64,000 bases of DNA from Candidatus Woesearchaeota archaeon (GCA_019323195.1 JAHWHQ010000036.1:2952-66951), one strand, 5' to 3'; shown: positions 7,880 to 62,943, numbered from the stretch's first letter. The notes: generated by a model from the sequence alone, not told the origin. A program made the numbers and translations.

Positions 7880-8287
7880 GTGGAATATAAAGAACTATTA
7901 AAGAAAGCCAGGGAACAATTGCCCAAATCTGTTTTCGAGAAAGAAAGGTTTGAAATACCCAAGGCAAGGGGCCATATACAGGGGAACAGGACTGTATTAA
8001 GCAACTTTCTCCAGATAGCTGATATATTGGGAAGACCAGCAGAACATCTGCTTAAATATATCCTTAAAGAGCTGGCTACGCCGGGAGAGGTTAAGAAAAG
8101 CGGCTCTGTCATAATAGGAACAAAGGTGGGAGCCTCAAGGATAAATGAAAAGATTAGGCAATATGCTAACGAGTTTGTTCTTTGCAGTGAATGCGGAAAG
8201 CCTGACACAAAGATAGAAAAAGAGGATAAGTTTACTTTTTTAAAGTGCCATGCATGCGGAGCAAAACATCCTATAAAGGCCAGATAA
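7880..8287 (+). CDS. eif2b: Translation initiation factor aIF2 beta subunit
   Basis: 135 aa. It has the conserved aIF2-beta core (FLQIADILGRPAEHLLKYILKELATPGE) and a C-terminal C4 zinc ribbon (CSECGKPDT...CHACGA). Confidence 0.9.
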   Translation: MEYKELLKKAREQLPKSVFEKERFEIPKARGHIQGNRTVLSNFLQIADILGRPAEHLLKYILKELATPGEVKKSGSVIIGTKVGASRINEKIRQYANEFVLCSECGKPDTKIEKEDKFTFLKCHACGAKHPIKAR

Positions 8288-8368
8288 AAGCTGCTTATAA
8301 GACAATCTGGACTGATGTTTTGCAGGAGGATGTTTTTGTAATAACCAAATTGTATGCATTTGATATGA

Positions 8369-8671
8369 TTGATGTTCAAAATGATAGTTAAGATACATAA
8401 GACTGCAGAAGGAAGGAAGATAGTGGCTATATGCGACAATAACCTGATAGGGAAGAGGTTTGAAGAAGGAAAACTGCAGCTTGACCTGAATTCTGCTTTC
8501 TATAAAGGAAAAGAGATGGGGAAGGAAGAGGTTAAGGAGCTGCTTAAAGAGCCCTGTATTGTAAATATAGTGGGTGAAGAAAGCGTTAATTTCGCCCTAC
8601 AGGCAGGAATCGCGAATAAGAAAGATGTTCTCAGGATAAGCAATATACCCCATGTAGAGGCAATAATATAG
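8369..8671 (+). CDS. DUF424-family archaeal protein
   Basis: 100 aa with KIHKTAEGRKIVAICDNNLIGKRFEEGKLQLDL...FYKGKE. Size and motif match DUF424, which is typically encoded next to aIF2-beta in archaea. Confidence 0.6.
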   Translation: MMFKMIVKIHKTAEGRKIVAICDNNLIGKRFEEGKLQLDLNSAFYKGKEMGKEEVKELLKEPCIVNIVGEESVNFALQAGIANKKDVLRISNIPHVEAII

Positions 8672-8692
8672 CAAAGTAGAAGCGAATTTGAT

Positions 8693-12232: not shown

Positions 12233-12233
12233 T

Positions 12234-13808
12234 TTAGATGAATTTCAAGATTTTTATTTCCCTGGTCTTAAGGTTTACAAGAGGTATCCTGCCTGGTTCC
12301 GGGTTATGGCCCACCTTTTCCTGGAAGGATGTCTTTGACTGCCAGCACGAGCCGCTTATCAAAGTTATATTCCTATAGTTTGCAGCTATAGACTTATGGA
12401 TGTGGCCGGTGATAAAGAAATCCGGCTCTCTGGCTATTACTAGGGGGTCCTGCTGCGCGTCAGGGGCGTATAATGTGGAGGTGTGGGTTGGAGCGAGATG
12501 CCTTCTCCTAAGAAGAAACTTCATGATGCGGTCTGCGCGGTTATAGCCGCCGTTGTTCCTTATCGAATCTACGTTCGCAACAAAATAATCGAAAGAGTAG
12601 CCATGGTAAAGCAGCACATCAAAACCGGAGAACTCTTCAGAGGAGTGAATATTGACCAGCGCAGGGTTGGAGACAGAGGTTATATTAGGGAGCCTGTAGA
12701 TGGGCTCTGCAAAATCCCTGTAAAGGGGAGGCTGGGGCTCGGCTATGCGCATGGCATCGTGGTTTCCAGGGCAGATTATAAGGTGTATTCTTGAAGGTAT
12801 CTGCTTCAGCAGACCTGCGCAGGCTTCATACTGGGAGTAAATATCTTTTATGTCGAGTTCCTTTTCCTGCTCAGGGTAGATGCCGCAGCCGTCAACAAGG
12901 TCGCCAACGATGAATATGTACTCAACTTTTGACGCTATTTCCTTCTGTTTTTCGTTGCCGGCCTGCCCGTTTATCCATTTAAGGAACCTGTTGAAGGCTT
13001 CGGGAAGAAAATTATTGGAGCCTACATGCAGGTCTGAAAGGAATAAGGCATAAGCTTCAGACGGGCTTTTTTTAAGCTTCCTGGCGGTGACTTCGGGCCA
13101 GAACAGCTTGTTGGCGAAAACTATGTTGGTGCCGTTAACCCCGCTGATGCCAAGGATCTCGTCAAGGACTATTGACCTGGCCTCTTCGAAGGTGTCCGGC
13201 TTGTTCTTGTTTACCAGGACGTTTATGGAGCCGGTCTGGTCCTCTAACGTCAGGATAAGGTTCTTGTTTTTTGTCAGCTGCTTGTCCGATACCATTCCAA
13301 TCAAGGAGACAGAATCACGGTCTTTCTTGTTTTTTATCCGGTTAATGGTGGTAATGTTCTTAAGGTCGGGCCTTTGACGAAGCAGCTTTTCTATGGCCTT
13401 ATACCGCATATTAAAATACCGGACAAAATCCTGGATGTCCCTTTTTTTTGGGTTCTCGTCATAGGAGTGCACTACTTTAACCTTTTCATCGGTGATTTTT
13501 GCCTTCTTGGTGTAAAGGTATTTTATGAATTTAGGGTAAATCTTGCTTTCTTTCCCTTTTTCCATCTGTGCTTTTGATCTCTCTAGGTCAGGCCAGTTGA
13601 GGTCCAGTACAGAAAGGCTTTGAAGGGCATCATTAATGTCGTTGTTGAGGAAAAGGAAATTCTGAAGGTTTATTTTGCGGGTTATAAGGGAGTAGATCTC
13701 TTCTGCGTGCTTCTGGCTTATATTATCAAGGATGTCTGAGCTTAGGAGGATATCTTTACCAAGAAAAAAATCTACTACCTGCTTTTTTTGGATTGCTTCC
13801 TGCTTCAT
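12234..13808 (-). CDS. polB: DNA polymerase II (family D) small subunit DP1, calcineurin-like phosphoesterase
   Basis: 524 aa. N-terminal DP1 region followed by an OB region. Metallophosphoesterase motifs are LFLSDLHVGS, IFIVGDLVDG, GNHD and GHIH. Confidence 0.9.
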   Translation of the reverse strand: MKQEAIQKKQVVDFFLGKDILLSSDILDNISQKHAEEIYSLITRKINLQNFLFLNNDINDALQSLSVLDLNWPDLERSKAQMEKGKESKIYPKFIKYLYTKKAKITDEKVKVVHSYDENPKKRDIQDFVRYFNMRYKAIEKLLRQRPDLKNITTINRIKNKKDRDSVSLIGMVSDKQLTKNKNLILTLEDQTGSINVLVNKNKPDTFEEARSIVLDEILGISGVNGTNIVFANKLFWPEVTARKLKKSPSEAYALFLSDLHVGSNNFLPEAFNRFLKWINGQAGNEKQKEIASKVEYIFIVGDLVDGCGIYPEQEKELDIKDIYSQYEACAGLLKQIPSRIHLIICPGNHDAMRIAEPQPPLYRDFAEPIYRLPNITSVSNPALVNIHSSEEFSGFDVLLYHGYSFDYFVANVDSIRNNGGYNRADRIMKFLLRRRHLAPTHTSTLYAPDAQQDPLVIAREPDFFITGHIHKSIAANYRNITLISGSCWQSKTSFQEKVGHNPEPGRIPLVNLKTREIKILKFI

Positions 13809-13838
13809 TTTAGGTAAGAAGGACTATTCCTTAGTTGG

Positions 13839-15050
13839 CTAAGATACGGCTAACCCTTCCTCTAAGATCTTTTTTGTTTTTCCTATAAGCGCTTCGGGGA
13901 TCAAAAGTGAGATCTCCCTTGTCCTTCCGTGGCGGCCCTTGGAGATTACCTTGGCGTTTATTATGCCAAGCATGTCCAGTTCAGCTATAACATCAGAGAT
14001 CCTTCTCTGCGTTAACGGCCTGAGGCCTACTCTGGAGGAAACCTGCTTATAGATTTCATAAATATCCCCTGTGAAGATGTTTTCTTTCCTTTTCTGGCTT
14101 AATGAAAGGATAGAGTAAAGTGTTGCCTGGGACTGCTTGGGCTGGTGGGTTATGGCGTCCAGGACGCTGTCTTTCTCTATTTTTTCCTCAGCATGGTCTA
14201 TGTGGGAGATGTCTACCTTTTTTGAACTGTTACGTTCGGCAATCTCGGCTGCAACCCTTAAAAGCTCTAAAGCGCGCCTTGCATCACCGTGCTCCCTGGC
14301 GGCGTAAGCTGCGCATTTTTCAATAACGCCTTCACTGATAGAGTCCTTTTTGAAGGCTTCTGCCGCCCTTTGCTTTAAGATGTCCTGGATCTGTATTGCG
14401 TTGTAAGGAGGGAAAACAAGCTCTTCTTCAGACAGTGAAGAGCGAACCCTTGGGTCTATGTTATCAACAAAGATGAGGTCGTTGGAGATGCCAATAAGAG
14501 AGACCTGTGCATTTTTAAGGTCCTCGTTGATCCTTACAAGGTTGTAAAGTATCTCGTCCCCTGTTTTTTTCACAAGCTGGTCTATCTCGTCAAGGATAAG
14601 AAGAATTAGCTGTTTTTTGGAATCTATAACGTTAAAGAAGGATTTGTAGACTTCGTCTGTAGGCAGGCCGGTAGGAGCTATCTCATGGCCAAATTCACGC
14701 GTCAATTGGGCAATGAGGCGGTATTCTGTGTCTGCCATCTTCTTGAGCTTGCAGTTAAGGTAGACTGTTTTTAACGGGATGCCTTTTTGTTTGGATTTGT
14801 CCAAGAGGTTGTCGGCTATGTGCTTGATGGTAAGGGTTTTGCCAGAACCTGTCTTTCCGTAAATGAACAGGTTAGATGGCTTTTCAAGTTTCAGGCATGG
14901 CGCTAAGATGTTTGCTACCTGCTTTATTTCTGAATCGCGATGTGAGATGGCTTCTGGCGTATAGGAGCTTTGCAGGGCTTTCTTATCTAGAAAAAGGCTT
15001 TCTTTACCTAAAAAGTCCTCAAAAAAGTTGGATAACGCCTCTTTTTCCAT
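13839..15050 (-). CDS. cdc6: Orc1/Cdc6 replication initiator
   Basis: 403 aa. Walker A is IYGKTGSGKT, Walker B is LILDEID, and a C-terminal winged helix follows. It is oriented away from the oriC-like region. Confidence 0.93.
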   Translation of the reverse strand: MEKEALSNFFEDFLGKESLFLDKKALQSSYTPEAISHRDSEIKQVANILAPCLKLEKPSNLFIYGKTGSGKTLTIKHIADNLLDKSKQKGIPLKTVYLNCKLKKMADTEYRLIAQLTREFGHEIAPTGLPTDEVYKSFFNVIDSKKQLILLILDEIDQLVKKTGDEILYNLVRINEDLKNAQVSLIGISNDLIFVDNIDPRVRSSLSEEELVFPPYNAIQIQDILKQRAAEAFKKDSISEGVIEKCAAYAAREHGDARRALELLRVAAEIAERNSSKKVDISHIDHAEEKIEKDSVLDAITHQPKQSQATLYSILSLSQKRKENIFTGDIYEIYKQVSSRVGLRPLTQRRISDVIAELDMLGIINAKVISKGRHGRTREISLLIPEALIGKTKKILEEGLAVS

Positions 15051-15574
15051 ATAGTTTCCATATGAAATGGAGGTATTTAAAGTTTTAGGTGTTATACGGG
15101 AGTAGTGGATTCTTAATTGTATGTAAAGTATGTTCTATGTCGTAGGAGGGGTGTAATAATAGTTGGGTATTTTGGGGTAGATAAGCTCGTTTTACTGTTT
15201 AGAACACACCCCTTGATTTCTTATGGAAAAATGGATTTAAAGATTTTGGCTTTTTTTTGTTTTTTGTTTTTTTATTCTTTTCTATATAGAAAATAATAAT
15301 ATAATAATAAATATAATAAAGATATAAATAAAGAATAAAGAATAAAAATGATAAAGGAGATAATGAGGAATAATAAATAAAGAATAAAAATGATAAAGGA
15401 GATAATGAGGAATAATAAATAAAGAATAAAAATGATAAAGGAGATAATGAGGAATAATAACTAAAAGATAAAGATAATCCGGAAGTAAATATAACTTCCA
15501 TAGGAAAAAGGGGGGTAGCCCTTGCCTAGTAGAAAGAAATATTTATTAAGGCTGGATGTGGGCATTTACTTAAA
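15051..15574. other. Putative replication origin (oriC). ORB-like boxes: 15056-15075 in + orientation, 15205-15229 in inverted orientation, 15495-15520 in + orientation. An AT-rich DUE-like stretch lies at about 15235-15490.
   Basis: The boxes read tTTCCAtatGAAAtGGAGGt (15056-15075), the reverse complement tTCCAtaaGAAAtcaaGGGGtgtg (15205-15229) and cTTCCAtagGAAAaaGGGGGGtagcc (15495-15520). All fit the archaeal ORB pattern TTCCAnnnGAAA followed by a G-string. Two of them in opposite orientation bracket a region of more than 85% A+T. The position next to orc1/cdc6 is also typical. Confidence 0.65.
15334..15459. repeat. Perfect 42-bp tandem direct repeat x3 (aataaagaataaaaatgataaaggagataatgaggaataata) inside the AT-rich origin region
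   Basis: Read directly. Copies are at 15334-15375, 15376-15417 and 15418-15459, with a partial copy upstream. The repeat generates the spurious in-frame ORF 15199..15501 on the minus strand. Confidence 0.9.
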
Positions 15575-16387
15575 TTGCCGGAATTTACCAATGGGACAAG
15601 GAATATGCCTCAAAAAAACCTAAAGGATTATGTTAAGGATAAGCTGGGTAAGGGGTATAGTACTTTTACTATTAAGAAGGCCCTGCTTAAATGGGGGTAT
15701 AAGGAAGAAAATGTTGATATGGTCTTTTCTTCTTTGCTGCCTTTAGGGAAGCAAAAGGCTGCTGAGGAACATCATAAGGGGCAGTTTAGCTTATTTGTCA
15801 GACCTGGCAGTTTTTTTTCCGAACGATCTGATCTGGGGATCCATAAGGCTGTTAGGTATTTTCTGCATGCTTTTTTGATTTTCTTTGCCATTCAGTTTCT
15901 TATAACGCTTTTAGCAGGGATTTTTGCAAGGGGGGAAGGATATTTTATCCCTGCTGCGCTTTTGGCTAATGTTTTGACAAGCCTGCTTTTTTTGCTGTCA
16001 ATACTTATCTTTTCTTCTTTATTGGCAGGGTTATGCTTTTTTTCATCTAAATATATATTTCAGGAAAGGATGGATTTTCTTCTGATTCTTACTATCCTGC
16101 TCTTTGCTTTGGTGCCTTATGTACTGATAAGCTCTTTAAGGAGCCTTGAGGTATATGGCATCATTTCACTTTTAGGCGTCTCGATCGGGGTCTTGGACAT
16201 AAACATATTCTTTTTGTGGTCATTGTTTTTGTTTTCTTTAGGGATGTCTAAGAGTTTGGGGTTGAGCGTTAAGAAAGGGGTGCTTTTTGTTCTTGTTCCT
16301 TTTGCTTTTCTTATGGCTGCCCTGGCCTTTGCTTCGTACGGGGCTTTGAGGGCAAGGTTTTTGTGGCTGGTTTTTGAGAGGTTTTGA
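15575..16387 (+). CDS. Membrane protein: about 60-aa soluble N-terminal domain plus about 6 TM helices
   Basis: 270 aa. The hydrophobic helices begin at HAFLIFFAIQFLITLLAGIF... There is no recognisable catalytic motif. A T-rich stretch follows the gene. Confidence 0.5.
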   Translation: MPEFTNGTRNMPQKNLKDYVKDKLGKGYSTFTIKKALLKWGYKEENVDMVFSSLLPLGKQKAAEEHHKGQFSLFVRPGSFFSERSDLGIHKAVRYFLHAFLIFFAIQFLITLLAGIFARGEGYFIPAALLANVLTSLLFLLSILIFSSLLAGLCFFSSKYIFQERMDFLLILTILLFALVPYVLISSLRSLEVYGIISLLGVSIGVLDINIFFLWSLFLFSLGMSKSLGLSVKKGVLFVLVPFAFLMAALAFASYGALRARFLWLVFERF

Positions 16388-16446
16388 GGGTTTTTTCTTT
16401 TAGTCTGGAAATTGTTTTTTGACTGAAGGGTTTTCTTTTTATGGGA

Positions 16447-16475
16447 CTACATACTAAGTATGTAGTAGTATGTAG
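16447..16475. promoter_or_regulatory. Palindromic operator-like element ctacatact-a-agtatgtag plus a third half-site agtatgtag
   Basis: A perfect 9-bp inverted repeat with an extra direct half-site, about 120 bp upstream of the RHH gene. A second perfect palindrome cttagttaactaag (16559-16572) and a TATA-like tatatata (about 16530) lie closer to the start. Confidence 0.5.
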
Positions 16476-16590
16476 TTTAAAAGGGAAATCTTTATATACC
16501 AGTTATTTCAGGAATAACTTATATACTTAAATATATATAACTAACCGAACTTATTAAGCTTAGTTAACTAAGTTACTTGGATTGTTCCAA

Positions 16591-16725
16591 ATGACAAGGG
16601 TAAACGTAGAGATCGACAATGAGCTGCACAAGAAAGCTAAGCTGAACGCTCTTCTTAAGAACCAGACTTTAATCGAGTATATTCATGAGGCTCTGAGGGA
16701 AAAGGTAAAGAAAGATGGTAAATAA
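16591..16725 (+). CDS. Ribbon-helix-helix (CopG/Arc/VapB-like) small DNA-binding protein, 44 aa
   Basis: MTRVNVEIDNELHKKAKLNALLKNQTLIEYIHEALREKVKKDGK. The layout is a beta-strand (RVNVEID), helix, helix, which is typical of RHH. It is not in the ORF track because it is under 60 aa. Its last 11 nt overlap the ATG of the giant gene at 16715. Confidence 0.6.
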   Translation: MTRVNVEIDNELHKKAKLNALLKNQTLIEYIHEALREKVKKDGK

Positions 16726-19700
16726 GAAAATATTTGTCTTTTTGGTCATGGCTGTTTTTTTGGCTAGTCTGGTCAGGTCCATAGTTCTTTTACCGGAAAA
16801 CCCATTATATGGTTGTAAATTAGATGTACAATATTCAGATGGGGGCCAAATAGACACTAACCCCACCCAGCCATGGAGCGGAGGGGTCAGGTTTGATGGC
16901 AGCAGCAAAAGGATATCCTTTGTAGGCTATGTAAACGGGGACGATGCGATTGATTTGAAGGTGACGTGTTCCGACCCAGGATTACAATCATGCATTTTGA
17001 GAGCAAGAGACGCAGACTCGGTGATATGGAAGTCTGGCAGGTTTGATGGAACCCCTGTAAGGATATCTTTTACAGGCCCGGTGGGCAGCGGTGATGCTAT
17101 TGAGGTTAAGATATACTGCCCCTCTCCTGGGGTGAGAAACAATTGTAAGCTATATGGCAGATACTCAGATTTAGGTCAAATAGATTCTAAGTCGTGGGGG
17201 GATGGGGTTAAGTTCGATAACTCACCATTGGAGATATCGTTTACAGGGGTGGTTAGTAATGATGATGATATAGACCTGAAGATCGAATGCGACTGCCCAT
17301 GCCCTTTTGGCTTGTGTTGTGATAACTGCCAGTTCAGGGATGCGGGAGAGGTATGCGGGAATGTTCCAAGTGATTGTTTGAGTAAGACAGGGGCTGACTA
17401 TTGTTGCGATAAACCAGAGGTATGTGATGGGGCAACGCCTGGCTGCCCTCCAGATAACGATGTCCAAGACAGCAACTATGTTTGCAGGAACCCAAAGGCA
17501 TGTACCGAGCCGGAATGCTGCGACTTACCTGAAAAATGTGACGGCTTAACTAAATACTGCCCTACAGAAGATAAAGTTAAGGATGAAGGGGTACTTTGCA
17601 AGACAGATACAAGGGCATGCTATGATGATGGGTATTGTGACGGGGAATTCCCTGTTTGCTTGCCAAACCCTGCCCCCAAGGATACTCCATGCACTACCGA
17701 CGATGGCAAATCAGGCTATTGCGACCTTGATGGGAACTGTAATGCCGGATGCAGCTCTGATCAGACCTCTCTTTCAAGAAAATCTTCAATGACCGGCTCT
17801 TCAGACACAAATGATATCCCGCAAGATCTCAACGATCAGGCGTGCTGTGACAGTGCAGAGATGTGCGTATATGCCGGAGCGTGTTATCTTGGCACTTCAG
17901 ATAGGTCATATTATCTAAATGCCCTGGGCATTAATGATGTTATCTGCAGATCGAATACCTGGCATGACTGCGATTACAAGGAGGACTATTGTACTGGCTG
18001 GGGTGTGTGCAGTATAGGTATTGGGCGCTGGATAAAAAACGGGGAGGAACAAACAATAGGGGAGTATAATACAGCCTATCCCAATCCAACAGAGAAGTGC
18101 TGCGGTGATGATGCCGGGGAGAAATACGTATCAAGAAATGTTGTAGGTTCAGACTCTGACATTCCGGCAGATGCAGATGACGTGGCCTGTTGTTCCAGCA
18201 GCACTGATTGCGTCTATGACGGCAAGTGCTATGATGCTGGCTCTACAGACCCTGGCAGTTACTGCAAGGGACAAAAGTGGAATGGAGGGGATGATTTACC
18301 AGAGGCATGCCCTCTCTTGGGCGGAACATGGGATGCAGCCATGGCGGCGGGTAGCCAATGCTGCGGCGATGATGAAGGAGAGACGCCAAAATCCCGGGAG
18401 GGGGATTATGCTGACCTTAATGATGAAGCCTGCTGCGGTAGCGATGAATGCGTCCTTAGTGGGGGATGTAAGCCGTATCTTGCTACCTATGACCTGAGCA
18501 GCTACAGCGTTTTAGACGATTCTGCTGACCTAGAGGTGTGCATGTCATCCGGGTGGAAGGATCCAGATTTTAGCCAGGAAGCGTGCCAGGCCGTAAATAA
18601 CAAAAGAACAGATGGAGGGGGAAACTTAATCCCTACATTATGGATGGCGGGGGGGGAGTGCGGATATGGCACTGGGCAATGTGATGATGCCCCTAATTCC
18701 CCAAATAAGATGAATTTCTGCTGCGGTGACGACCCTTGGGAGCTTTTTAACCCTGCCAGGAGCGGAACTAAGTGTTTTATCCACCCGGATTACGGGTGTT
18801 CCCATGATGGTGTGGACTATATATATAAGCCGATGGTAAATGGGAAGTATACTGATGATGACTGCTGTAAAGGCACATGCCCTGAAGGGGGATGTTGCGA
18901 TAAGAACTGCAATTATCTGCCTGATACCCATATATGCAGGGAAGCGGCGTCAGAATGTGATGTGGCTGAAAAATGCACAGGAACGAGCCCAGACTGCCCA
19001 GACAACGCCTTTGAACCAATCGGTACAGAACCTCCTTGCGGGAAGTGCGACGGGGCAGGGAACTGCGGGGAATGCCTTCCTACCGAGTTTAATAACCACC
19101 GAGAATCAATAAAACCTGCTATACCTATAGATGATAAATATCCTTATTTCCCAACACTTACTACAGACAAGGCATGCTGCTCAGAAATAGATGATTGCGT
19201 GTATGACGGCAAGTGCTATGCCAGCAACAGCGGCAGGCCAGAGGGCAGCCCCCCTGTTGATATTATGGGCGCTGTCTGTTATATCCCTGAATCACAAAAG
19301 TGCCCCACCTGCATAAGGGGCGGAACATGGTATGACTGCGACAATGACCAGAGCTTTTGCACGAATAATGAGTGGGGATGTTCCCTGAACTGGGTGGCCA
19401 GCGGGGAGGCTGGTGTCGGGGAGTACGGCGCTGAGGGAACGATGGAATGCTGCGGGGATGATTTTGATACTGACGGCAACCCCCAGGAGTTCTTTAAGGT
19501 AATCAAGCTGGGCAGCGATTCTACACTTTCGGTTTCAGGAACAGACAAGGCATGCTGCAATTCAGGCAATGACTGCGTTGAGAATTATGAATGCTATGAT
19601 CCAGGAAGGCTGCATAAGGGTGGGAAGGATTACTGCAATGCAACAGGAGGATGGGAGGGAGGGGATAATTCAGAGGCTGCATGCACGGCAATAACAAAAG

Positions 19701-22700
19701 CTGCAGGAAGGTGGGATATAGACTTTGAATCTTCCGTTGCTGCAACAGGACCGTGCTGCGGTGATGATGATGCTACAGAGAGGTTTGTTACCTGTGACAT
19801 TGATGATTTTTGCAGCGATACAGCAAAAACAGCGTGCTGCGACAATACGCATGACTGCGTATTTGACGGGGTATGCCATCCTGCCTATGATGCCAGCAAT
19901 CCAAAGCCGGAATCTTTCCTTGATATGAAGAATGGCCTTCCTCTATGGGACACATCTTCTGACATGGAGGTCTGCATCGATGATCCGGTGGCAGGGAGGC
20001 TGGGTTGGAAAGACCCTGATGATTATGATGGTGCCTGCTCTGCCGTGAACAACAGGCCGAACCCTACTAGGTGGATGTCCGGGGCAGATACAAGCTGCGG
20101 CCTTGAGAGGGAAGGGAGGGTATGCGATGATTCTCCCAGCGGGCTAAACACGGCAGATTTCTGCTGCGGCGATGATGAGGGGGAGGTTTTTAGGGAAGAG
20201 GAAGGTTTTGAGAATGCGTGCCTTGTCAAGGGCGGATGCTATTTTGAGGGACAACACTTCCTGGACGGGGAATATTCAGGGGATAATTACTGCCAGAACG
20301 GTGAGGTCATACAGAGAACGAAGCTTATTGCCCTACAGCTGTTGGACATAGCAAACAAGGAAAGCCCTTCGCATTATACATTATTCTGCGACAGCTATGA
20401 GAATGCCCTTAACTATTATAGCTACGACCTTAATCCGCCGTATTCAACTTCAGCCTTTCCTTATACAGATAAAATCAATAATGTATGCCTCTTAAGGCTA
20501 AAAGACCAGGTAATATTCGGGACATCCTTAGATGACCCTATAGACGAAGGGGCTTACCCTTTCATTAACGTACTAAAGGATATAAAAAGCAATCTTGACT
20601 GCAGCAGCGTGCAAGGTGTAGGGGACTGGCAGTTCCATAGCTGCAATACTCTTAAGGTATGGTATAATGATAAGATACAGAGCGTAATATACAGCAATAA
20701 GGACCTAAACCTTGGGAACCTTGATTTTGATGAGAAGTTCTTATTGTTCCTGAAGAACCCGTTCCAGAACATATTTGATTCAATTATCAGCTTATTTGGG
20801 GAGTCGAAGGTTGATCCCGAGGATTATGGGTTCCTGAAAGACAGCAAGAAGTTTTCAAGGATATACCTTGACAGGACAGGGGTCAAGTCCATAAAAGGTG
20901 TTATAGAGGATGATGCAGAAGCAGGAGAGTACCTTTCTATAGCCTATAACTGCTATACTGATGATATATGCGAGACAGTAGAGGCTGCGCAGGAGAGATT
21001 TGGGGCCAAAGGGATATTTGGAGGGGATGAGATCAGCTGCAGTTATAAGCCGGATATCTCCACTTATTATGTTGCAAGCAGATCACCTACCCGGCTGGAC
21101 ATGTGGCCGCAGCTGACAGCAGGCTTGAGGACGAAGAATGTAAAGCTTCCTACAGGGCTTACAATAACCCCGCGCATAAAGGCGCCGGAAAAGGCTATAA
21201 AGGGCTATCCTGTAGAGTTCCAGGCAGATGTTGAGGGGGCCTGCATCTCACCCCCTTATACCTATTCCTGGACTTTTGGGGATGCAGGAACAGGCTCAGG
21301 AGAGGCGCCAACACATGCCTATACTGCAACAGGCAGCTATATTGTGGGCTTAACAGTTGAGGAACAGAAAGATGCTTCAAACCATGGAAGCGGCACCCAT
21401 AGCCTGGAGGTTATTGACATTAAAGATTGTGAAATAAGGGATAAATCAGTTGGATGTGATGCTGGAGCCCTTGAGCAGTGCATCATGTCATTATCCGCAG
21501 GGGCAGATGCTACAGCAGACGAGGCATGCGACAGCGTCTCGCCATACGAGCTTTGCTGCCAGAATATATTCCAGGTGGATACTGCCCCGGGGGGGTGCGG
21601 GGAGGCGGGGCTTATCTCATTGTCACAGACCTTTAACGGCAGGGCAGACGGGTATAACCAGGGGACGTTTGCAAACGACATCTGCATAAGGTCGGCTGTG
21701 GAGGGGATGAAGGCCAGCTGCAGGCCTGTACTTAAAGGAGATACTTTCAATAACCTTGGTGGCGAGGTGTGCGTCCTTTCATTATCTGCTTTTAAGGGGG
21801 GCGTAATCTCGGGATGCGACCCCAATGCTGAAGTGAATATCTACTGCAGGATTATCGATGAGGCTGTAAATGTTGAAAACTGTGAGAACGGCGAGAATGA
21901 TGATGGAAGCGGCCTTGATGACTGCGAGAACGCGGCCTACTGCCCGACAGGGACATTCTGCAATGCGGAGCATACGCAAAGATGCACAAAAGACGCATCT
22001 GACAATCGCCTGTGTGAATGCATCGATAATGATGGTGACGGCTATGGCGCTTGCGCTGGTGCGGATTGTAATGATCCTGCTACATGTGACTGCAATGATG
22101 GTGATCCCTCAATACATCCAGGTGCAGCTGAAACCTGCGATAATGTAGATGAGGACTGTGACAAGCTAGTTGATGAGGGTGTAACAAAACAAGAGGCATG
22201 CAGTGTCGGCTGTCCTGGAAACAAATGCACTTTTACATGCTCAGCAGGGGCGTGGACTGAAGACCTTTCTAACGCTTATAATGGGGCTACTCTAGAGGTG
22301 TGTGATGCTTTGGATAATGACTGCGACGGGGAGATTAATGAGGGTGTAACAAGAATGGTTTTCTGCGGCGACTATGGAGTCTGCAAACTCCAAAGCCATA
22401 CTCAAACATGCAACATAGCTGGTGAATGGGTTCCTGCTACCTGTGATACAACTACAATCCCTAATTATAACACTAATGATGATTGTAGTGATACCTTAGA
22501 TAATGACTGCGATAATTCTGTAAATGAGGATGGGTTGGAGACATTCTATAAAGATGGCGATTCAGACGGGTATGGGCTGCAGACAGATTTACAGGAGGCA
22601 TGTGCAGGTTCGCTGCCTGCTGGCTATGTCGCTTCTAAACCCGACGGTTATGACTGTAATGATGGCGATTGGAGGATTAATCCTGGGAAGACCGAGACCT

Positions 22701-25021
22701 GCGACGGGCTGGATAATGACTGTGACTCAACAACAGCGGACGGCTCTGATGAATCCTGGTTTGGTGCTGCCTGTGACGGCACAGACGCAGATCAATGCGC
22801 TGACGGATTCTATGTATGCACTGCAGAGGTAAAGGCATGTACAGACGATGCTGCCAATAGGATTGAGGTATGTGACGGCGATGATAATGACTGTGATGGT
22901 TTAACGGACGAAAATGTTCTGACTACATACTATCAGGATGCAGATGGAGATGGCTATGGAAAATATTCCAGCACAAAACAGGATTGTACACCACCTGTAG
23001 GTTATGTCGCTTCTAAGCCCGATGGTTATGACTGTGATGACACCAAGCCAGGTATTCATCCAGGAGCCACTGAAACCTGTGATGGCCTAGATAATAATTG
23101 CGTGGATGGAACGGATGAAGGGTGTGATTGTGTAACCGGAGCCACGCGAGACTGCGGGGCAAGCAATACAGCACCATGTAAATATGGCAAAGAAACCTGT
23201 GTAAATGGCGCGTGGAGCGGCAGCTGCATCGGCAATATAGACCCCGCCACTGAAATCTGCGATGGTGTGGATAATGACTGTGACGGCTCAACAGACGAAA
23301 CATATTCAAACTGCCCTGCCGCTTATATTGATGCTCCTAATTGTAAGTCCTATGCAGCCAGCACCTGTAGTAGCGGGAGCTGCACTGCTCAAGCAGCTTC
23401 TGATGCTCCTGATAACACCATATGTGAAGTTAGCACAGGCAGGGTCTGCAAAGGGGGCACTTGTTGTGTTGCTAATCTGGGCCAGCCATGCTTAAATGGT
23501 TATGGCAGTTCCTGCGTTAATCCAGGGACTATACAATGCGACGGAAGCTGCACAGGCTGGACTTTTAAGGATAAAGGTACCTCTTGTGGCGGTTATCTCC
23601 ACCAGTGTAATGGTGCTGGAAGTTGTTGTACAGGCCCTGAGTTAAATGTAGATTGCATCTCTACTTGCGGGAACGGCGTCTGTGATTCTACAGAATCCTG
23701 CAATAAATGCCCTGAAGATTGCCCTATTGCAGCATTTTCTGCCAGCGGAACAGGATGCGCAGCATGCCCCTTAGGATCCTATGCTGGGGAGGGAGGCGTC
23801 ACATACTGCAAGACTCCGATTGACTCCTGCCTAACTGCCTCATTTAGGTATCGTTGTACTGGTTGCGCAGGATCAGCCTGTTGTACCTGGGTTAAAGCAA
23901 GCTGTTTTGTTCCTTACTCTGAAGGCGTCCCCTGCCGAAGTTATACCGAGGATCTTATGTGGAAGATTTCCAGCGACCCATCTATAATTAACGGTCTTTC
24001 ATGCGCCCCTACCTGCCCACAGCTCCTTATCAAATCAGAAGATGGAACCCTAACTTACCAAAACAATATCATTAAGGGAAATATCCTGCCAAACCTGGAA
24101 ACACTAAGGTTTGATAAATTCAGGCAAAGGATTCAGCCTGGCGACAAGATTGTAATACACGAGGCCGGTGCAGGGGATGTTACTTACCTGAACTCTCTTG
24201 AGTTGGTGGGCTATAAGAGCTTAGAGGGAAAGACAGAGGTCCTTCTTGACCAGAGCTTCAACCCTGTAGGGTTTAATCAAGGGGATTTAGTGTCCACCCT
24301 CCCTGAAACTGAGATACAGGATTACCTTGAATACAACGAGATAAATCTTGATGGGGAAGAGGCATACCTTTACCTGACAGGAGGGATAACATCCCAATGG
24401 ACCACCAATCTGCGCGAGGTCGTAATGAAGAAGCTTGCGCACCCTAAACTGTATGAGCTGGCTCCGGGATTTGTGGATCTTGTAGGGACAAACCTTTCCT
24501 TCTATGCCAATATTGTTGTGGAGGTGGAGAAAAATGGTGTCTGGCAGAGATTAAACATGCCTAAGGTTTTGATCATGGAGAATCATGAAACAGCTGTTGT
24601 AAGATTACCTGCAGGGGCATCCAGAGTGCGGACCCGAACAATTTTGGGGATGTACCAGTTCGACAGGTTTGCATTGCTTCCGGTTTCAGATGCAGACCCT
24701 GATATAGAACAAAAAACATTCACATTAAAGGATAATGCCCAATTAGCAGAGACTGACGGCCTATACAGCGAAATTGAGAAGGACCCGCTTGAGATTGACC
24801 TTGCTGATTTTAATGATGCGGAAGAGATACAGAACTACGACAATTTTTACCTTAAGACAAGCGGATATTACCTTTACGGGAAACGGGCAATGGAAGATAT
24901 GGAGAGCACACTTATGGATGATTTAGTTCTGGCCTATAGGCTGAATAAGATTAAAAAATGGCTCAGTTCCCCTGAAGAATATATGGAAGAGATAATGGAT
25001 TTTGCAGGAATGAAGTCGTGA
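16715..25021 (+). CDS. Giant secreted Cys-rich surface protein (2768 aa)
   Basis: Signal/anchor is MVNKKIFVFLVMAVFLASLV. Three N-terminal repeats of about 55 aa (YSDGGQIDTN...ISFVGYVNGDDAIDLKVTC) are encoded at about 16820-17290. At least six Cys-rich modules of the form CCGDDxGE ... ACCxSxxDCVxDGxCY follow. A PKD-like domain (YTYSWTFGDAGTGSGEAPTHAYTATGSYIVGLTV) is encoded at about 21150-21420. MopE-like putative metal-binding motifs (CxDxDxDGYG, DNDCDGxxDE, HPGAxETCDGxDN) at about 21990-23320 recur at least six times. The C-terminal approximately 450 aa are Cys-poor. Confidence 0.85.
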   Translation: MVNKKIFVFLVMAVFLASLVRSIVLLPENPLYGCKLDVQYSDGGQIDTNPTQPWSGGVRFDGSSKRISFVGYVNGDDAIDLKVTCSDPGLQSCILRARDADSVIWKSGRFDGTPVRISFTGPVGSGDAIEVKIYCPSPGVRNNCKLYGRYSDLGQIDSKSWGDGVKFDNSPLEISFTGVVSNDDDIDLKIECDCPCPFGLCCDNCQFRDAGEVCGNVPSDCLSKTGADYCCDKPEVCDGATPGCPPDNDVQDSNYVCRNPKACTEPECCDLPEKCDGLTKYCPTEDKVKDEGVLCKTDTRACYDDGYCDGEFPVCLPNPAPKDTPCTTDDGKSGYCDLDGNCNAGCSSDQTSLSRKSSMTGSSDTNDIPQDLNDQACCDSAEMCVYAGACYLGTSDRSYYLNALGINDVICRSNTWHDCDYKEDYCTGWGVCSIGIGRWIKNGEEQTIGEYNTAYPNPTEKCCGDDAGEKYVSRNVVGSDSDIPADADDVACCSSSTDCVYDGKCYDAGSTDPGSYCKGQKWNGGDDLPEACPLLGGTWDAAMAAGSQCCGDDEGETPKSREGDYADLNDEACCGSDECVLSGGCKPYLATYDLSSYSVLDDSADLEVCMSSGWKDPDFSQEACQAVNNKRTDGGGNLIPTLWMAGGECGYGTGQCDDAPNSPNKMNFCCGDDPWELFNPARSGTKCFIHPDYGCSHDGVDYIYKPMVNGKYTDDDCCKGTCPEGGCCDKNCNYLPDTHICREAASECDVAEKCTGTSPDCPDNAFEPIGTEPPCGKCDGAGNCGECLPTEFNNHRESIKPAIPIDDKYPYFPTLTTDKACCSEIDDCVYDGKCYASNSGRPEGSPPVDIMGAVCYIPESQKCPTCIRGGTWYDCDNDQSFCTNNEWGCSLNWVASGEAGVGEYGAEGTMECCGDDFDTDGNPQEFFKVIKLGSDSTLSVSGTDKACCNSGNDCVENYECYDPGRLHKGGKDYCNATGGWEGGDNSEAACTAITKAAGRWDIDFESSVAATGPCCGDDDATERFVTCDIDDFCSDTAKTACCDNTHDCVFDGVCHPAYDASNPKPESFLDMKNGLPLWDTSSDMEVCIDDPVAGRLGWKDPDDYDGACSAVNNRPNPTRWMSGADTSCGLEREGRVCDDSPSGLNTADFCCGDDEGEVFREEEGFENACLVKGGCYFEGQHFLDGEYSGDNYCQNGEVIQRTKLIALQLLDIANKESPSHYTLFCDSYENALNYYSYDLNPPYSTSAFPYTDKINNVCLLRLKDQVIFGTSLDDPIDEGAYPFINVLKDIKSNLDCSSVQGVGDWQFHSCNTLKVWYNDKIQSVIYSNKDLNLGNLDFDEKFLLFLKNPFQNIFDSIISLFGESKVDPEDYGFLKDSKKFSRIYLDRTGVKSIKGVIEDDAEAGEYLSIAYNCYTDDICETVEAAQERFGAKGIFGGDEISCSYKPDISTYYVASRSPTRLDMWPQLTAGLRTKNVKLPTGLTITPRIKAPEKAIKGYPVEFQADVEGACISPPYTYSWTFGDAGTGSGEAPTHAYTATGSYIVGLTVEEQKDASNHGSGTHSLEVIDIKDCEIRDKSVGCDAGALEQCIMSLSAGADATADEACDSVSPYELCCQNIFQVDTAPGGCGEAGLISLSQTFNGRADGYNQGTFANDICIRSAVEGMKASCRPVLKGDTFNNLGGEVCVLSLSAFKGGVISGCDPNAEVNIYCRIIDEAVNVENCENGENDDGSGLDDCENAAYCPTGTFCNAEHTQRCTKDASDNRLCECIDNDGDGYGACAGADCNDPATCDCNDGDPSIHPGAAETCDNVDEDCDKLVDEGVTKQEACSVGCPGNKCTFTCSAGAWTEDLSNAYNGATLEVCDALDNDCDGEINEGVTRMVFCGDYGVCKLQSHTQTCNIAGEWVPATCDTTTIPNYNTNDDCSDTLDNDCDNSVNEDGLETFYKDGDSDGYGLQTDLQEACAGSLPAGYVASKPDGYDCNDGDWRINPGKTETCDGLDNDCDSTTADGSDESWFGAACDGTDADQCADGFYVCTAEVKACTDDAANRIEVCDGDDNDCDGLTDENVLTTYYQDADGDGYGKYSSTKQDCTPPVGYVASKPDGYDCDDTKPGIHPGATETCDGLDNNCVDGTDEGCDCVTGATRDCGASNTAPCKYGKETCVNGAWSGSCIGNIDPATEICDGVDNDCDGSTDETYSNCPAAYIDAPNCKSYAASTCSSGSCTAQAASDAPDNTICEVSTGRVCKGGTCCVANLGQPCLNGYGSSCVNPGTIQCDGSCTGWTFKDKGTSCGGYLHQCNGAGSCCTGPELNVDCISTCGNGVCDSTESCNKCPEDCPIAAFSASGTGCAACPLGSYAGEGGVTYCKTPIDSCLTASFRYRCTGCAGSACCTWVKASCFVPYSEGVPCRSYTEDLMWKISSDPSIINGLSCAPTCPQLLIKSEDGTLTYQNNIIKGNILPNLETLRFDKFRQRIQPGDKIVIHEAGAGDVTYLNSLELVGYKSLEGKTEVLLDQSFNPVGFNQGDLVSTLPETEIQDYLEYNEINLDGEEAYLYLTGGITSQWTTNLREVVMKKLAHPKLYELAPGFVDLVGTNLSFYANIVVEVEKNGVWQRLNMPKVLIMENHETAVVRLPAGASRVRTRTILGMYQFDRFALLPVSDADPDIEQKTFTLKDNAQLAETDGLYSEIEKDPLEIDLADFNDAEEIQNYDNFYLKTSGYYLYGKRAMEDMESTLMDDLVLAYRLNKIKKWLSSPEEYMEEIMDFAGMKS

Positions 25022-25056
25022 TGCTGAAATATTTAAACACATTGATGTTTTTATTG

Positions 25057-25077
25057 AAAATCCCTAATGGGATTTTT
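25057..25077 (+). terminator. Hairpin aaaatccc-taat-gggatttt followed by a T-run, 36 nt after the giant-gene stop (possible terminator or attenuator)
   Basis: An 8-bp perfect stem, 4-nt loop and 3' U-tract read directly. Archaeal termination normally needs only T-tracts, so the functional role is inferred. Confidence 0.4.
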
Positions 25078-25174
25078 AATCCCTTAAAGGCAAACGACCT
25101 TAACTTTAGTGAAGTGATTTCCTTAAGCACGAACCATCACTGAGCCGGATAAAGAACCTTTGCAATAAAAACCT

Positions 25175-26912: not shown

Positions 26913-27053
26913 GTGAAAGAGAGGATTACGATTACTATTGATAAGGAACTTCTTAATTGGTTAGATAAGAAAATAGATGAAAAGGTTTTTGCAAACAGGT
27001 CTCACGGCCTAGAGTTTCTTATAAAACGGAGGATGGAGGGGGAGAATGAATAA
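26913..27053 (+). CDS. Ribbon-helix-helix (CopG-family) small DNA-binding protein, about 46 aa, GTG start
   Basis: VKERITITIDKELLNWLDKKIDEKVFANRSHGLEFLIKRRMEGENE. It shows the CopG-type signature (RITITIDxELxxxLD...NRSxxIxxLI). The stop TAA at 27051-27053 overlaps the ATG of the giant gene at 27046 (sequence gagAATGAATAAgg). The start codon is uncertain and could be GTG at 26913. Confidence 0.55.
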   Translation: MKERITITIDKELLNWLDKKIDEKVFANRSHGLEFLIKRRMEGENE

Positions 27054-62940: not shown

Positions 62941-62943
62941 ATA

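What the first reader, a model, noticed from the sequence alone, without database searches (positions are those of the whole stretch)
16591..16725. A ribbon-helix-helix micro-gene overlaps the start of giant gene 1 by 11 nt
A 44-aa RHH protein (MTRVNVEIDNELHKKAKLNALLKNQTLIEYIHEALREKV...) ends with TAA at 16723-16725. The 2768-aa gene starts at ATG 16715, inside the RHH gene's last codons. RHH proteins are usually antitoxins or autorepressors paired with a toxin. Here the partner position is occupied by a giant adhesin. The overlap of stop and start implies coupled translation of a regulator and an 8.3-kb structural gene.
Basis: partly seen in the sequence, partly recalled or inferred. Interest (0 to 1): 0.7.

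Follow-up and report, generated by a model that had tools for sequence, protein, structure and literature searches.

The report
Small regulator gene heading surface-protein operon
A 44-residue DNA-binding protein gene really does overlap the start of a 2768-residue secreted-protein gene, and this pairing, with a matching set of repeated DNA sites in front of it, recurs across Woesearchaeota/Nanoarchaeota genomes, so it looks like a dedicated self-regulating switch for surface-protein genes, not a toxin-antitoxin pair.

Summary
ATG 16591 to TAA 16725 encodes 44 aa. The 2768-aa ORF starts at ATG 16715, giving an 11-nt overlap (ATGGTAAATAA).

The micro-gene is real. It has more than 100 homologues of 43-71 aa (nearly all 44-49) at 66-100% identity in DPANN archaea, and its codon-position diversity is 0.27/0.10/0.57. 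The AlphaFold model (pLDDT 88.5) matches Arc, CopG, SvtR and PutA ribbon-helix-helix structures.

In 34 independent modules:
- 31 overlap the next gene, most often by 4 nt.
- 33 of the next genes begin with a hydrophobic signal-peptide-like segment (236-2768 aa).
- 19 of those partners share a core homologous to residues ~900-1700 of the giant protein.

Upstream lies a conserved archaeal BRE/TATA box about 100 nt before the ATG. An invariant AATAACTTATATA box sits at the predicted transcription start, followed by arrays of the palindromic heptad TAASTTA. These arrays are over 20-fold enriched, and 24 of 28 clusters in 626 kb sit at promoters of operons containing this gene.

No toxin gene is present, and the protein lacks any toxin-binding extension.

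A second, unrelated ribbon-helix-helix micro-gene (26913-27053) overlaps giant gene 2 by 8 nt in the same way.

Best reading: an autoregulatory repressor encoded as the first cistron of a surface-protein operon. This is a new member of a known kind, of moderate interest.

The parts
16446..16476 (.). Upstream array TACATAC / GTATGTA / GTATGTA with 10-bp spacing. It consists of a palindrome ACTACATACT-A-AGTATGTAGT plus a direct repeat. It is a candidate site for a second regulator.
   Evidence: One search reports it as I5, I2 and D2. The same 10-bp-spaced triplet occurs in L016 and L018, with partial copies in L039 and L008. The motif is 11-fold enriched in RHH2 promoters, and it is present at window 26734/26744.
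16480..16498 (+). Archaeal BRE/TATA-like promoter element, aaagggaaatcTTTATATA. The TATA box is at 16491-16498, 100 nt before the ATG.
   Evidence: The TTTAWATA core is invariant, preceded by an A/G-rich stretch, in the 11-locus alignment A2. A TATA-like element sits at -82 to -127 in most modules. Promoter function is inferred, not measured.
16513..16526 (+). Near-invariant box AATAACTTATATAC containing heptad TAACTTA (16515-16521). It lies about 26 nt after the centre of the TATA box, which is the predicted transcription start (~16521).
   Evidence: Columns A74-T85 are invariant in A2. The TSS position is inferred from the usual archaeal spacing between TATA box and transcription start.
16531..16544 (+). 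Second conserved box ATATATATAACTAA, with a heptad variant TAACTAA at 16538-16544.
   Evidence: Seen in alignment A2 and as inverted repeat I12.
16548..16575 (.). Proximal heptad cluster AACTTATTAAGCTTAGTTAACTAAGTTA. It includes the perfect palindrome CTTAGTTAACTAAG (16559-16572) and heptad TAAGTTA (16569-16575). It is the candidate RHH1 operator.
   Evidence: Reported (I6, I13). The hexamers AACTTA/TAAGTT and AAGTTA/TAACTT occur 89 and 83 times against 3.4 expected, in 31 of 35 upstream regions. There is no strand bias, 42 versus 37. Of 28 clusters in 626 kb, 24 lie at promoters of RHH1 operons.
16591..16725 (+). RHH1 micro-gene, encoding a 44-aa stand-alone ribbon-helix-helix protein.
   Evidence: Supported.
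16715..16725 (+). The 11-nt overlap ATGGTAAATAA. The Lys-rich tail of RHH1 (KDGK*) is read in another frame as the basic n-region of the signal peptide (MVNK).
   Evidence: Read directly from the sequence. The distribution of overlaps across 34 modules is.
16715..25021 (+). Giant gene 1, encoding a 2768-aa secreted or surface protein. It has a signal peptide, a disintegrin-like motif (720-764), a conserved core without Pfam match (~900-1700), a PKD domain (1488-1561) and 5 MopE-like Cys-rich repeats. Oligo-T and hairpin sequences follow at 25047-25090.
   Evidence: Supported.
26913..27053 (+). Parallel module: the RHH2 micro-gene (GTG start, 46 aa, NikR/CopG-type RHH). It overlaps giant gene 2 (27046-33084) by 8 nt, ATGAATAA.
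   Evidence: Supported. The arrangement is conserved at 81-91% identity in 6 distinct loci (L017 duplicates L005). It has a GTG start, the same 8-nt offset and a GGAGG inside its 3' end (junction ATGAATAA in six of the seven, window included; ATGGTTAG in L011).

Best explanation
RHH1 is a stand-alone ribbon-helix-helix transcription factor. It is encoded as the promoter-proximal cistron of a two-gene operon whose second gene is a secreted or surface protein.

Proposed mechanism:
1. Transcription starts about 26 nt after the TATA box at 16491-16498. This gives a leader of about 70 nt that is unusually long for this genome.
2. RHH1 dimers bind the palindromic heptads TAASTTA. These lie over the predicted start site (16515-16521) and in the leader (16538-16575).
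3. Binding represses the operon's own promoter. The result is negative feedback on a very costly 8.3-kb gene.
4. The giant gene cannot have a separate upstream intergenic promoter because it begins inside RHH1. Its translation is therefore either coupled to termination of the 44-codon ORF or started at the weak SD-like AGGT/GAGG just upstream.
5. A separate upstream array (RTATGTA at 10-bp spacing) offers an input for a second factor, possibly RHH2.

Shown here: the gene is real, the fold is RHH, the gene pairing and overlap are conserved, and the heptad arrays are conserved and nearly exclusive to promoters of this gene.

Inferred: DNA binding to the heptads, repression rather than activation, the position of the transcription start, co-transcription, and translational coupling.
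For: Gene and fold:
- 107 homologues with E <= 0.01, 43-71 aa (nearly all 44-49), 66-100% identical, named (where a name is given) from Nanoarchaeota/Woesearchaeota MAGs.
- Purifying selection, with codon-position diversity 0.273/0.103/0.569.
- AF2 pLDDT 88.5 with strand-helix-helix topology. Top PDB fold hits are Arc, CopA(SO), SvtR, PutA-RHH, ORF56 and CopG, with TM 0.8-0.9.
- R3, N5 and T26 are invariant and T2 and E7 nearly so. From general knowledge of RHH proteins, these are the outward-facing residues of the DNA-reading strand and the turn at the start of helix 2.

Pairing:
- 31 of 34 modules overlap the next gene, and 33 of 34 partners start with a hydrophobic N-terminal segment.
- 19 of 34 partners share a homologous core.

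Cis elements:
- The promoter architecture is conserved.
- Heptad hexamers are over 20-fold enriched in 31 of 35 upstream regions.
- Both orientations are equally frequent, which fits a double-stranded DNA site rather than an RNA motif.
- 24 of 28 heptad clusters in 626 kb are at promoters of RHH1 operons.
- In the window the only TAASTTA pair is at 16515/16569, and the heptad is not over-represented genome-wide.

Leader length: other genes in the window have TATA-like boxes about 30-38 nt from their ATG, so the ~70-nt leader is a special feature.

Precedent: CdrS is a 55-aa RHH protein co-transcribed with ftsZ2 in archaea (PMC7439475).
Against: - There is no experimental or transcript evidence. 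The transcription start is predicted only.
- The leader contains two further TATA-like boxes (16519-16526 and 16531-16542), so the true start could be nearer the ATG.
- The heptad-RHH1 link rests on association only.
- A DNA-first scan of metagenomes with the promoter box was not specific. Only 7 of 37 matches were followed by RHH1, and the rest were chance matches of an AT-rich pattern in unrelated contexts.
- Reinitiation after an 11-nt overlap has not been tested. The published experiments concern 4-nt and 1-nt overlaps (PMC6728339, PMC10666635).
- Activation rather than repression cannot be excluded.
Confidence: 0.62

Rival explanations
1. RHH1 is an orphan or degenerate type II antitoxin (HicB/ParD/VapB-like) whose toxin has been lost or replaced.
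For: The best sequence matches are to antitoxin families: Pfam HicB E 0.0028, ParD 0.016 and VapB 0.09, PHROG HicB-like antitoxin 1.9e-5, and PDB ParD E 0.27. Public annotations call homologues 'HicB family'.
Against: - All Pfam hits fall below the curated cut-offs.
- The PHROG match covers only profile positions 73-111 of 119, which is the DNA-binding end. The N-terminal HicA-neutralising domain is absent.
- At 44 aa there is no room for a toxin-binding extension.
- In 33 of 34 modules the adjacent gene encodes a protein of 236-2768 aa (full-length ones) with a hydrophobic N-terminal segment, and none of the six partners scanned has a toxin Pfam domain.
- The only reverse-strand ORF that overlaps the micro-gene has no Pfam match.
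- PADLOC gave no hit.
- The family is at least as conserved as Orc1/Cdc6 across the same genomes, which is unlike decaying TA remnants.
Confidence: 0.04
2. The micro-ORF matters mainly as a translational launch pad. Ribosomes translate the 44 codons and reinitiate on the SD-poor giant gene, and the peptide itself is secondary.
For: - The overlap is kept in 31 of 34 modules, 19 of them as ATGA.
- 12 of 34 partner starts have no SD-like 4-mer.
- Most genes in this genome look leaderless or short-leadered, so internal cistrons need an SD or coupling.
- Termination-reinitiation is established in archaea (PMC6728339, PMC10666635).
Against: - The amino-acid sequence is strongly conserved (66-100% identity, second-codon-position diversity 0.10). 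It folds as a DNA-binding RHH.
- Three modules keep the pairing without overlap, with gaps of +8, +103 and +177. Two of these have strong AGGAGGT/AGAGGT SD sequences.
- This role is compatible with the best explanation and does not replace it.
Confidence: 0.12
3. The heptad array is a centromere-like or origin-associated site. RHH1 would then be a ParG/omega/SegB-like chromosome-organising protein placed next to oriC.
For: - Orc1/Cdc6 lies divergently 0.4-1.9 kb upstream of RHH1 in 10 loci, including the window.
- From general knowledge, arrays of 7-bp repeats in both orientations resemble the binding sites of the plasmid RHH protein omega.
Against: - The arrays always lie between the TATA box and the ATG of RHH1 or of its operon, including in loci without Cdc6 (L005, L008, L015, L018 and others).
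- In the window, L004 and L016 a Yip1 gene separates Cdc6 from the array.
- No ParA/SegA-type ATPase is present in the window genes scanned.
- The invariant partner is a secreted protein.
Confidence: 0.05
4. The giant gene has its own promoter inside the RHH1 coding region, so the two genes are expressed independently despite the overlap.
For: The conserved Tyr-Ile codons give TATATT at 16682-16687. This is about 33 nt before ATG 16715 and matches the TATA-to-ATG distance of other genes in the window.
Against: - There is no A-rich BRE in front of it.
- In modules with a 4-nt overlap, the same codons would lie about 47 nt from the partner ATG, by arithmetic from the gene lengths. The geometry is therefore not conserved.
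- The element is explained by the protein sequence.
Confidence: 0.1

Closest known systems
CdrS-ftsZ2 operon of Halobacteria and other archaea (PMC7439475)
   Same: A very small single-domain RHH protein (55 aa) is encoded immediately upstream of, and co-transcribed with, a non-toxin structural gene. The arrangement is conserved across many archaeal genomes.
   Different: The RHH subfamily differs: CdrS is RHH_1/NikR-like, which is closer to RHH2 of this window than to RHH1. The partner is a cytoplasmic tubulin homologue, not a secreted protein. That paper reports the cdrS-ftsZ2 pair absent from DPANN. No heptad-array leader is described there.
Plasmid and phage RHH autorepressors (CopG of pMV158, Arc/Mnt of P22, omega of pSM19035, ORF56 and SvtR of Sulfolobus elements)
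   Same: They share the fold, with TM 0.8-0.9 to Arc, CopG, ORF56 and SvtR. They are 45-55 aa stand-alone DNA-binding dimers, are often the first gene of the operon they repress, and bind short repeated or palindromic sub-sites. Omega binds 7-bp heptads in either orientation (general knowledge).
   Different: This is a chromosomal, lineage-wide gene of Woesearchaeota/Nanoarchaeota. There is no significant sequence similarity to these proteins (18-26% identity in structural alignments). The target is a surface-protein gene rather than replication, partition or lysogeny genes. Binding has not been tested.
C-terminal RHH DNA-binding domain of HicB, and N-terminal RHH of ParD (type II antitoxins)
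   Same: These are the closest by sequence: Pfam HicB 18 bits over profile positions 21-51, ParD 16 bits, PHROG 9151 E 1.9e-5, and PDB 2an7 ParD with the shared pattern M-[ST]-R-x-x-I-[DE] ... K-T-[IL].
   Different: RHH1 lacks the toxin-neutralising domain and has no toxin neighbour. It scores below every curated cut-off.
Overlapping gene pairs translated by termination-reinitiation (PMC6728339, PMC10666635)
   Same: It is a co-directed pair with stop and start overlapping. ATGA, a 4-nt overlap, is the commonest form in this family (19 of 34).
   Different: In the window the overlap is 11 nt, which was not tested in those studies. Those authors find overlaps enriched among subunits of heteromeric complexes. 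That is implausible for a cytoplasmic DNA-binding protein and a secreted giant protein.

Membership tests
Ribbon-helix-helix (MetJ/Arc/CopG) superfamily | An N-terminal beta-strand followed by two helices, about 45 residues in all. | tested here: met
   The AF2 model has pLDDT 88.5, with an extended segment at 1-9 and helices at 10-22 and 27-42. Essentially all listed Foldseek PDB hits are RHH or RHH-containing proteins, and the best have TM 0.8-0.9 and rmsd about 1 A.
Ribbon-helix-helix (MetJ/Arc/CopG) superfamily | Alternating polar and hydrophobic residues in the strand, with conserved base-contacting side chains, and a turn with S/T/N at the start of helix 2. | tested here: met
   The strand reads T2-R3-V4-N5-I6-E7-I8. 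R3 and N5 are invariant and T2, I6 and E7 at least 90% conserved. In N24-K25-T26, T26 is invariant. Assigning these positions to DNA contacts follows general knowledge of RHH proteins and is not shown here.
Ribbon-helix-helix (MetJ/Arc/CopG) superfamily | Dimerisation and sequence-specific DNA binding. | not testable with these tools
   Only a monomer could be modelled. A candidate operator (TAASTTA arrays) was identified by association.
Type II toxin-antitoxin antitoxin (HicB / ParD / VapB) | A cognate toxin gene (HicA, ParE, PIN and the like) adjacent in the same operon. | tested here: not met
   The downstream gene is a signal-peptide protein in 33 of 34 modules. The giant protein carries PKD, MopE and disintegrin domains only. 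The reverse-strand ORF that overlaps the micro-gene has no Pfam hit.
Type II toxin-antitoxin antitoxin (HicB / ParD / VapB) | A toxin-neutralising domain or extension in addition to the DNA-binding domain. | tested here: not met
   The 44 aa equal the RHH domain alone. The PHROG HicB-like match covers only profile positions 73-111 of 119. The ParD match covers only its first 33 residues.
Type II toxin-antitoxin antitoxin (HicB / ParD / VapB) | A score above the curated family threshold. | tested here: not met
   HicB scores 18.0 against a cut-off of 21, ParD 16.0 against 27.3, and VapB 13.1 against 23.4. NCBIfam gave no relevant hit.
CdrS-type RHH regulators | Synteny and co-transcription with ftsZ2. 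| tested here: not met
   The downstream gene is a secreted multi-domain protein, not FtsZ. The resemblance is functional: a small RHH gene co-transcribed with a structural gene.
Autoregulated operon with the RHH gene as first cistron | Repeated or palindromic operator sub-sites overlapping the regulator's own promoter or transcription start. | tested here: inconclusive
   Conserved heptad arrays lie between the TATA box and the ATG, one of them at the predicted start site. Of 28 arrays, 24 are at promoters of RHH1 operons. Binding and the real transcription start were not measured.
Translationally coupled (termination-reinitiation) gene pair | Stop and start overlap, or lie within a few nucleotides, on one mRNA. 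| tested here: met
   The overlap is 11 nt in the window. There is overlap in 31 of 34 modules, and it is -4 in 19 of them.
Translationally coupled (termination-reinitiation) gene pair | Downstream translation depends on upstream translation. | not testable with these tools
   This needs reporter assays. SD-like 4-mers precede 22 of 34 partner starts, so independent initiation is possible.

The most novel reading that the evidence does not exclude
RHH1 and RHH2 may together form a lineage-wide two-regulator circuit that governs the whole surface-protein island next to the replication genes in Woesearchaeales.
- Each micro-gene heads its own operon of large secreted-protein genes and has its own repeat code: TAASTTA heptads for RHH1, and RTATGTA/TACTTA elements for RHH2.
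- The RTATGTA array in front of the RHH1 promoter (16446-16476) would let RHH2 control RHH1's operon.
- This would give hierarchical or mutually exclusive expression of alternative giant surface proteins, which are the presumed host-contact molecules of these episymbiotic archaea.
Probability: 0.15. Interest if true: 0.7.

Novelty: new member of a known kind. Interest (0 to 1): 0.42.

Why it matters
DPANN archaea are thought to depend on contact with host cells, and their very large, fast-evolving surface proteins are the prime candidates for that contact. Nothing is known about how these genes are controlled.

This analysis defines three things:
- a small regulator that is conserved at least as well as Orc1/Cdc6 and has no Pfam model;
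- its likely operator code;
- its fixed position in front of a conserved family of secreted proteins, with a second, parallel module a few kb away.

That makes a concrete test possible: gel shifts with a 44-aa protein and a 90-bp DNA fragment. It also gives a sequence signature for finding the regulated surface-protein genes in new Woesearchaeal genomes.

In addition, it corrects a recurrent automatic annotation. These proteins are named 'HicB family RNase H-like nuclease' or 'type II toxin-antitoxin system HicB family antitoxin', yet they have neither the nuclease-like domain nor a toxin partner.

The mechanism itself, an RHH autorepressor as the first cistron of an operon, is classical.

Tried and rejected
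- **Paralogue search.** tblastn of RHH1 against the window found no second copy. RHH2 was found by reading the sequence in front of giant gene 2.
- **Fold of the conserved partner core.** The homologue search returned only 4 proteins. The AF2 model built on 5 sequences had pLDDT 53, too poor for a fold search, so none was run. PDB sequence search of residues 900-1760 hit only the PKD domain. Pfam found nothing in the core.
- **DNA-first test of the promoter box in metagenome contigs.** The AT-rich 27-nt pattern gave 37 stretches. Only 7 were followed by RHH1, 2 were cut off by the contig end, and 28 were chance matches in unrelated sequence, several of them on contigs longer than 1 Mb. The test was uninformative for specificity.
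- **Rfam.** A scan of 15000-28000 at E <= 1 gave nothing. An RNA-element reading of the leader is also disfavoured because the heptads show no strand bias.
- **RTATGTA pair at 63748/63804.** It lies inside a Fic-domain coding region (HPFxxGNGR motif) and is coincidental.
- **PADLOC.** No hits.
- **Literature.** Searches for RHH or CopG together with DPANN or Woesearchaeota found no description of this arrangement. The library covers only open-access papers, so absence is not proof.
- **Toxin-antitoxin, centromere/origin and internal-promoter readings.** These were considered and ranked low (see the rival explanations).

Full report
**Observation**

The sequence is exactly as described. ATG 16591 to TAA 16723-16725 gives a 44-aa product, MTRVNVEIDNELHKKAKLNALLKNQTLIEYIHEALREKVKKDGK. 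The 2768-aa ORF runs 16715-25021, and its ATG lies 11 nt before the end of the micro-gene (ATGGTAAATAA). The giant product begins MVNKKIFVFLVMAVFLASLV. This is a basic n-region followed by a hydrophobic core, which supports 16715 as the true start.

**Host**

The window is archaeal.
- Upstream lie an intein-containing MCM, both DNA polymerase D subunits and Orc1/Cdc6 (the large subunit is identified from the syntenic 1179-aa gene in L002).
- Downstream of the giant-gene island lie glycosylation genes.
- Homologues of the micro-protein that carry a source name are from Nanoarchaeota or Woesearchaeota assemblies.
- A near-identical 4.6-kb JGI contig (L001) carries the same gene pair.

**The micro-gene is real and has a ribbon-helix-helix (RHH) fold**

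- The protein search returned 107 homologues with E <= 0.01. They are 43-71 aa (nearly all 44-49) and 66-100% identical.
- In an alignment of 46 of them, M1, R3, N5, H13, K14, K17, L18, T26, L27 and I28 are invariant.
- Across 34 independent gene copies, diversity at codon positions 1/2/3 is 0.273/0.103/0.569. This is the signature of a translated gene under purifying selection.
- AlphaFold2 with this alignment gives pLDDT 88.5, with an extended N-terminus and two helices.
- Essentially all listed Foldseek matches in the PDB are RHH or RHH-containing proteins. They include Arc, the CopA(SO) DNA-binding domain, SvtR, PutA-RHH, ORF56 and CopG, and the best have TM 0.8-0.9.
- Sequence matches are weak and fall only in DNA-binding parts of antitoxins. 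Pfam HicB, ParD and VapB are all below their cut-offs. PHROG HicB-like scores E 1.9e-5 but covers only profile positions 73-111 of 119. ParD of RK2 matches only over its first 33 residues.

The 44 residues are therefore an RHH domain and nothing more.

**The pairing with a secreted protein is conserved**

Context look-ups and a scan of species-representative genomes gave 34 distinct modules.
- In 31 of them the RHH gene overlaps the next gene on the same strand. The overlaps are -4 (x19), -11 (x3), -14 (x4), -17 (x2), and one each of -20, -26 and -41. Three modules have gaps of +8, +103 and +177.
- In 33 of 34 the partner begins with a hydrophobic, signal-peptide-like segment.
- Full-length partners range from 236 to 2768 aa.
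- 19 of the 34 partners share a homologous core that aligns with residues ~900-1700 of the window's giant protein. Most full-length members of this group are about 900-1200 aa, so the window's gene is a local expansion.
- A separate group of five partners of 236-266 aa have pilin-like N-termini of the form 'KRGQS..FIIAGI'.
- No toxin-like neighbour was seen, and PADLOC found nothing.

The variable overlap has a simple explanation. The poorly conserved Lys-rich tail of the RHH protein and the basic n-region of the signal peptide are both encoded by purine-rich codons, so they can share DNA in different frames. This is an inference.

**A conserved control region sits in front of the micro-gene**

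Aligned upstream regions from 11 loci share three features:
- an A/G-rich stretch followed by TTTATATA (window 16491-16498, 100 nt before the ATG);
- a near-invariant AATAACTTATATA box (16513-16526) about 26 nt after the centre of the TATA box, which is at the predicted transcription start;
- an ATATATATAACTTA box, followed by repeats of TAAGTTA/TAACTTA running up to the ATG.

The evidence for the heptad repeats is as follows.
- The hexamers AACTTA/TAAGTT and AAGTTA/TAACTT occur 89 and 83 times where 3.4 are expected, in 31 of 35 upstream regions.
- The heptad TAASTTA is its own reverse complement apart from the centre base.
- Both orientations are equally common, 42 versus 37. This fits a double-stranded DNA site rather than an RNA signal.
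- Spacings between heptad centres peak at 5, 9, 14, 18, 23 and 31-32 nt.
- In 626 kb of fetched loci there are 28 clusters of three or more heptad cores. Of these, 24 lie at the promoter of an operon that contains an RHH1 homologue.
- In the window the only pair of exact heptads is at 16515 and 16569, and the heptad is not over-represented overall: 6 found, 10.3 expected.

Other genes in the window have TATA-like boxes 30-38 nt from their ATG. The ~70-nt leader here is therefore unusual for this genome.

**A second, parallel module**

GTG 26913 to TAA 27053 encodes a 46-aa RHH protein of a different subfamily, matching the NikR N-terminal domain at E 1e-6. It overlaps giant gene 2 (27046-33084, 2012 aa) by 8 nt. 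In six other distinct loci it is 81-91% identical and always has a GTG start, the same 8-nt offset and a GGAGG inside its own 3' end. The junction reads ATGAATAA in six of the seven, window included, and ATGGTTAG in L011. Where both genes lie on one locus, it sits about 6-8 kb downstream of RHH1.

Its promoter regions carry different enriched words, TACTTA/TAAGTA (15-fold) and TATGTA/TACATA (11-fold). The same triplet precedes the RHH1 promoter in L016 and L018 only, with partial copies in L039 and L008. A pair at 10-bp spacing lies before RHH2 in the window at 26734 and 26744. This suggests a second regulatory input, possibly RHH2, but the evidence is thin.

**Mechanism**

The best-supported reading is a classical one. 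RHH1 is an autoregulator encoded as the first cistron of a two-gene operon.
- It would bind the heptads at and after the transcription start and limit expression of itself and of a costly secreted protein.
- The giant gene starts inside RHH1, so it has no upstream intergenic promoter.
- Oligo-T and hairpin sequences after 25021, and a separate TATA-like box before the next gene (probable start ATG 25182), suggest that the operon ends there.
- Translation of the giant gene may be coupled to termination of the short ORF. Termination-reinitiation is established for overlapping pairs in archaea (PMC6728339, PMC10666635).
- However, an 11-nt overlap was not tested in those studies, and SD-like AGGT/GAGG lie 9-20 nt before ATG 16715.
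- Binding, direction of regulation, transcription start and coupling are all inferred.

**Rivals**

- An antitoxin remnant is unlikely, for the reasons given above.
- A pure 'launch-pad' ORF is contradicted by the strong conservation of the protein sequence.
- A centromere or origin role is suggested by Orc1/Cdc6 lying 0.4-1.9 kb upstream in 10 loci. Against this, the arrays stay with RHH1 when Cdc6 is absent or is separated from it by a Yip1 gene, and no ParA-type gene was found nearby.
- An internal promoter (TATATT at 16682-16687) cannot be excluded in this window, but its geometry is not conserved.

**Comparison and novelty**

The closest functional precedent is CdrS, a 55-aa RHH protein co-transcribed with ftsZ2 in many archaea but reported absent from DPANN (PMC7439475). 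Plasmid and phage RHH autorepressors share the fold and the logic. I found no paper describing this family or its link to surface-protein genes, within the limits of an open-access library.

I rate it a new member of a known kind. It is useful for DPANN biology and for correcting 'HicB' annotations, but it is not mechanistically surprising.

Noticed in passing
window 26913-27053 and 27046-33084: A second, unrelated RHH micro-gene (46 aa, GTG start, NikR/CopG-type) overlaps giant gene 2 by 8 nt (ATGAATAA). A GGAGG lies inside its 3' end. The arrangement is conserved at 81-91% identity in L002, L004, L005, L008, L011 and L015.
   Followed up: partly
window 16446-16476 and 26734-26754; L016 and L018 upstream of RHH1: RTATGTA/TACATAY elements occur at exact 10-bp spacing upstream of both RHH promoters. 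They are 11-fold enriched in RHH2 promoters but present at only a few RHH1 promoters. The binding factor is unknown.
   Followed up: partly
window 16800-16844 versus L001: The near-identical JGI contig L001 differs from the window at only 6 of 4565 positions. All six fall within 45 nt at the start of the mature giant protein and cause four amino-acid changes (N29S, L31F, S41P, G44S). This is a very local patch of variation.
   Followed up: partly
window 2739-15050; L002, L004, L006, L010, L013, L016, L030, L035, L039: The RHH1 module lies next to a replication-gene cluster: MCM with a LAGLIDADG intein, both DNA polymerase D subunits, and Orc1/Cdc6. Orc1/Cdc6 is divergent and 0.4-1.9 kb from RHH1 in 10 loci. 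One MAG (NYZT01) has two such Cdc6-RHH1 loci. The origin of replication was not located.
   Followed up: partly
L022, L026, L028, L032, L040: A subgroup of RHH1 genes is paired with short (236-266 aa) proteins whose N-termini look like archaeal type IV pilin signal peptides (KRGQS/V followed by FIIAGI). In L026 and L032 the heptad promoter precedes an extra small gene, and RHH1 is the second cistron. In L005 a peptidase A24 gene lies just upstream of RHH1.
   Followed up: no
window, many genes (e.g. 13839-15050, 6236-6916, 52511-53791, 58516-59535): Most genes have an A-rich stretch plus a TATA-like box 30-38 nt before the ATG and no Shine-Dalgarno sequence. This suggests mostly leaderless or very short-leader mRNAs. 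The two RHH operons, with leaders of about 70 nt or more, are exceptions.
   Followed up: partly
window 25175-26653 (probable start ATG 25182): A 490-aa protein with a hydrophobic N-terminus and no Pfam match lies between the two RHH modules. It is conserved in the same position in L002, L004, L005, L007, L008, L011 and L015.
   Followed up: no
window 50000-54000 and 60000-64000: G+C drops to about 30-34% in these stretches, against 43-50% in the surface-protein island and the replication genes. A Fic-domain gene (HPFxxGNGR motif) runs off the end of the window at ~63500-64000.
   Followed up: no
database entries P0019, P0021, P0035, P0096 and others: Public annotations name these 44-47-aa proteins 'predicted HicB family RNase H-like nuclease' or 'type II toxin-antitoxin system HicB family antitoxin'. 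They contain only the RHH DNA-binding part, so the names are misleading.
   Followed up: yes
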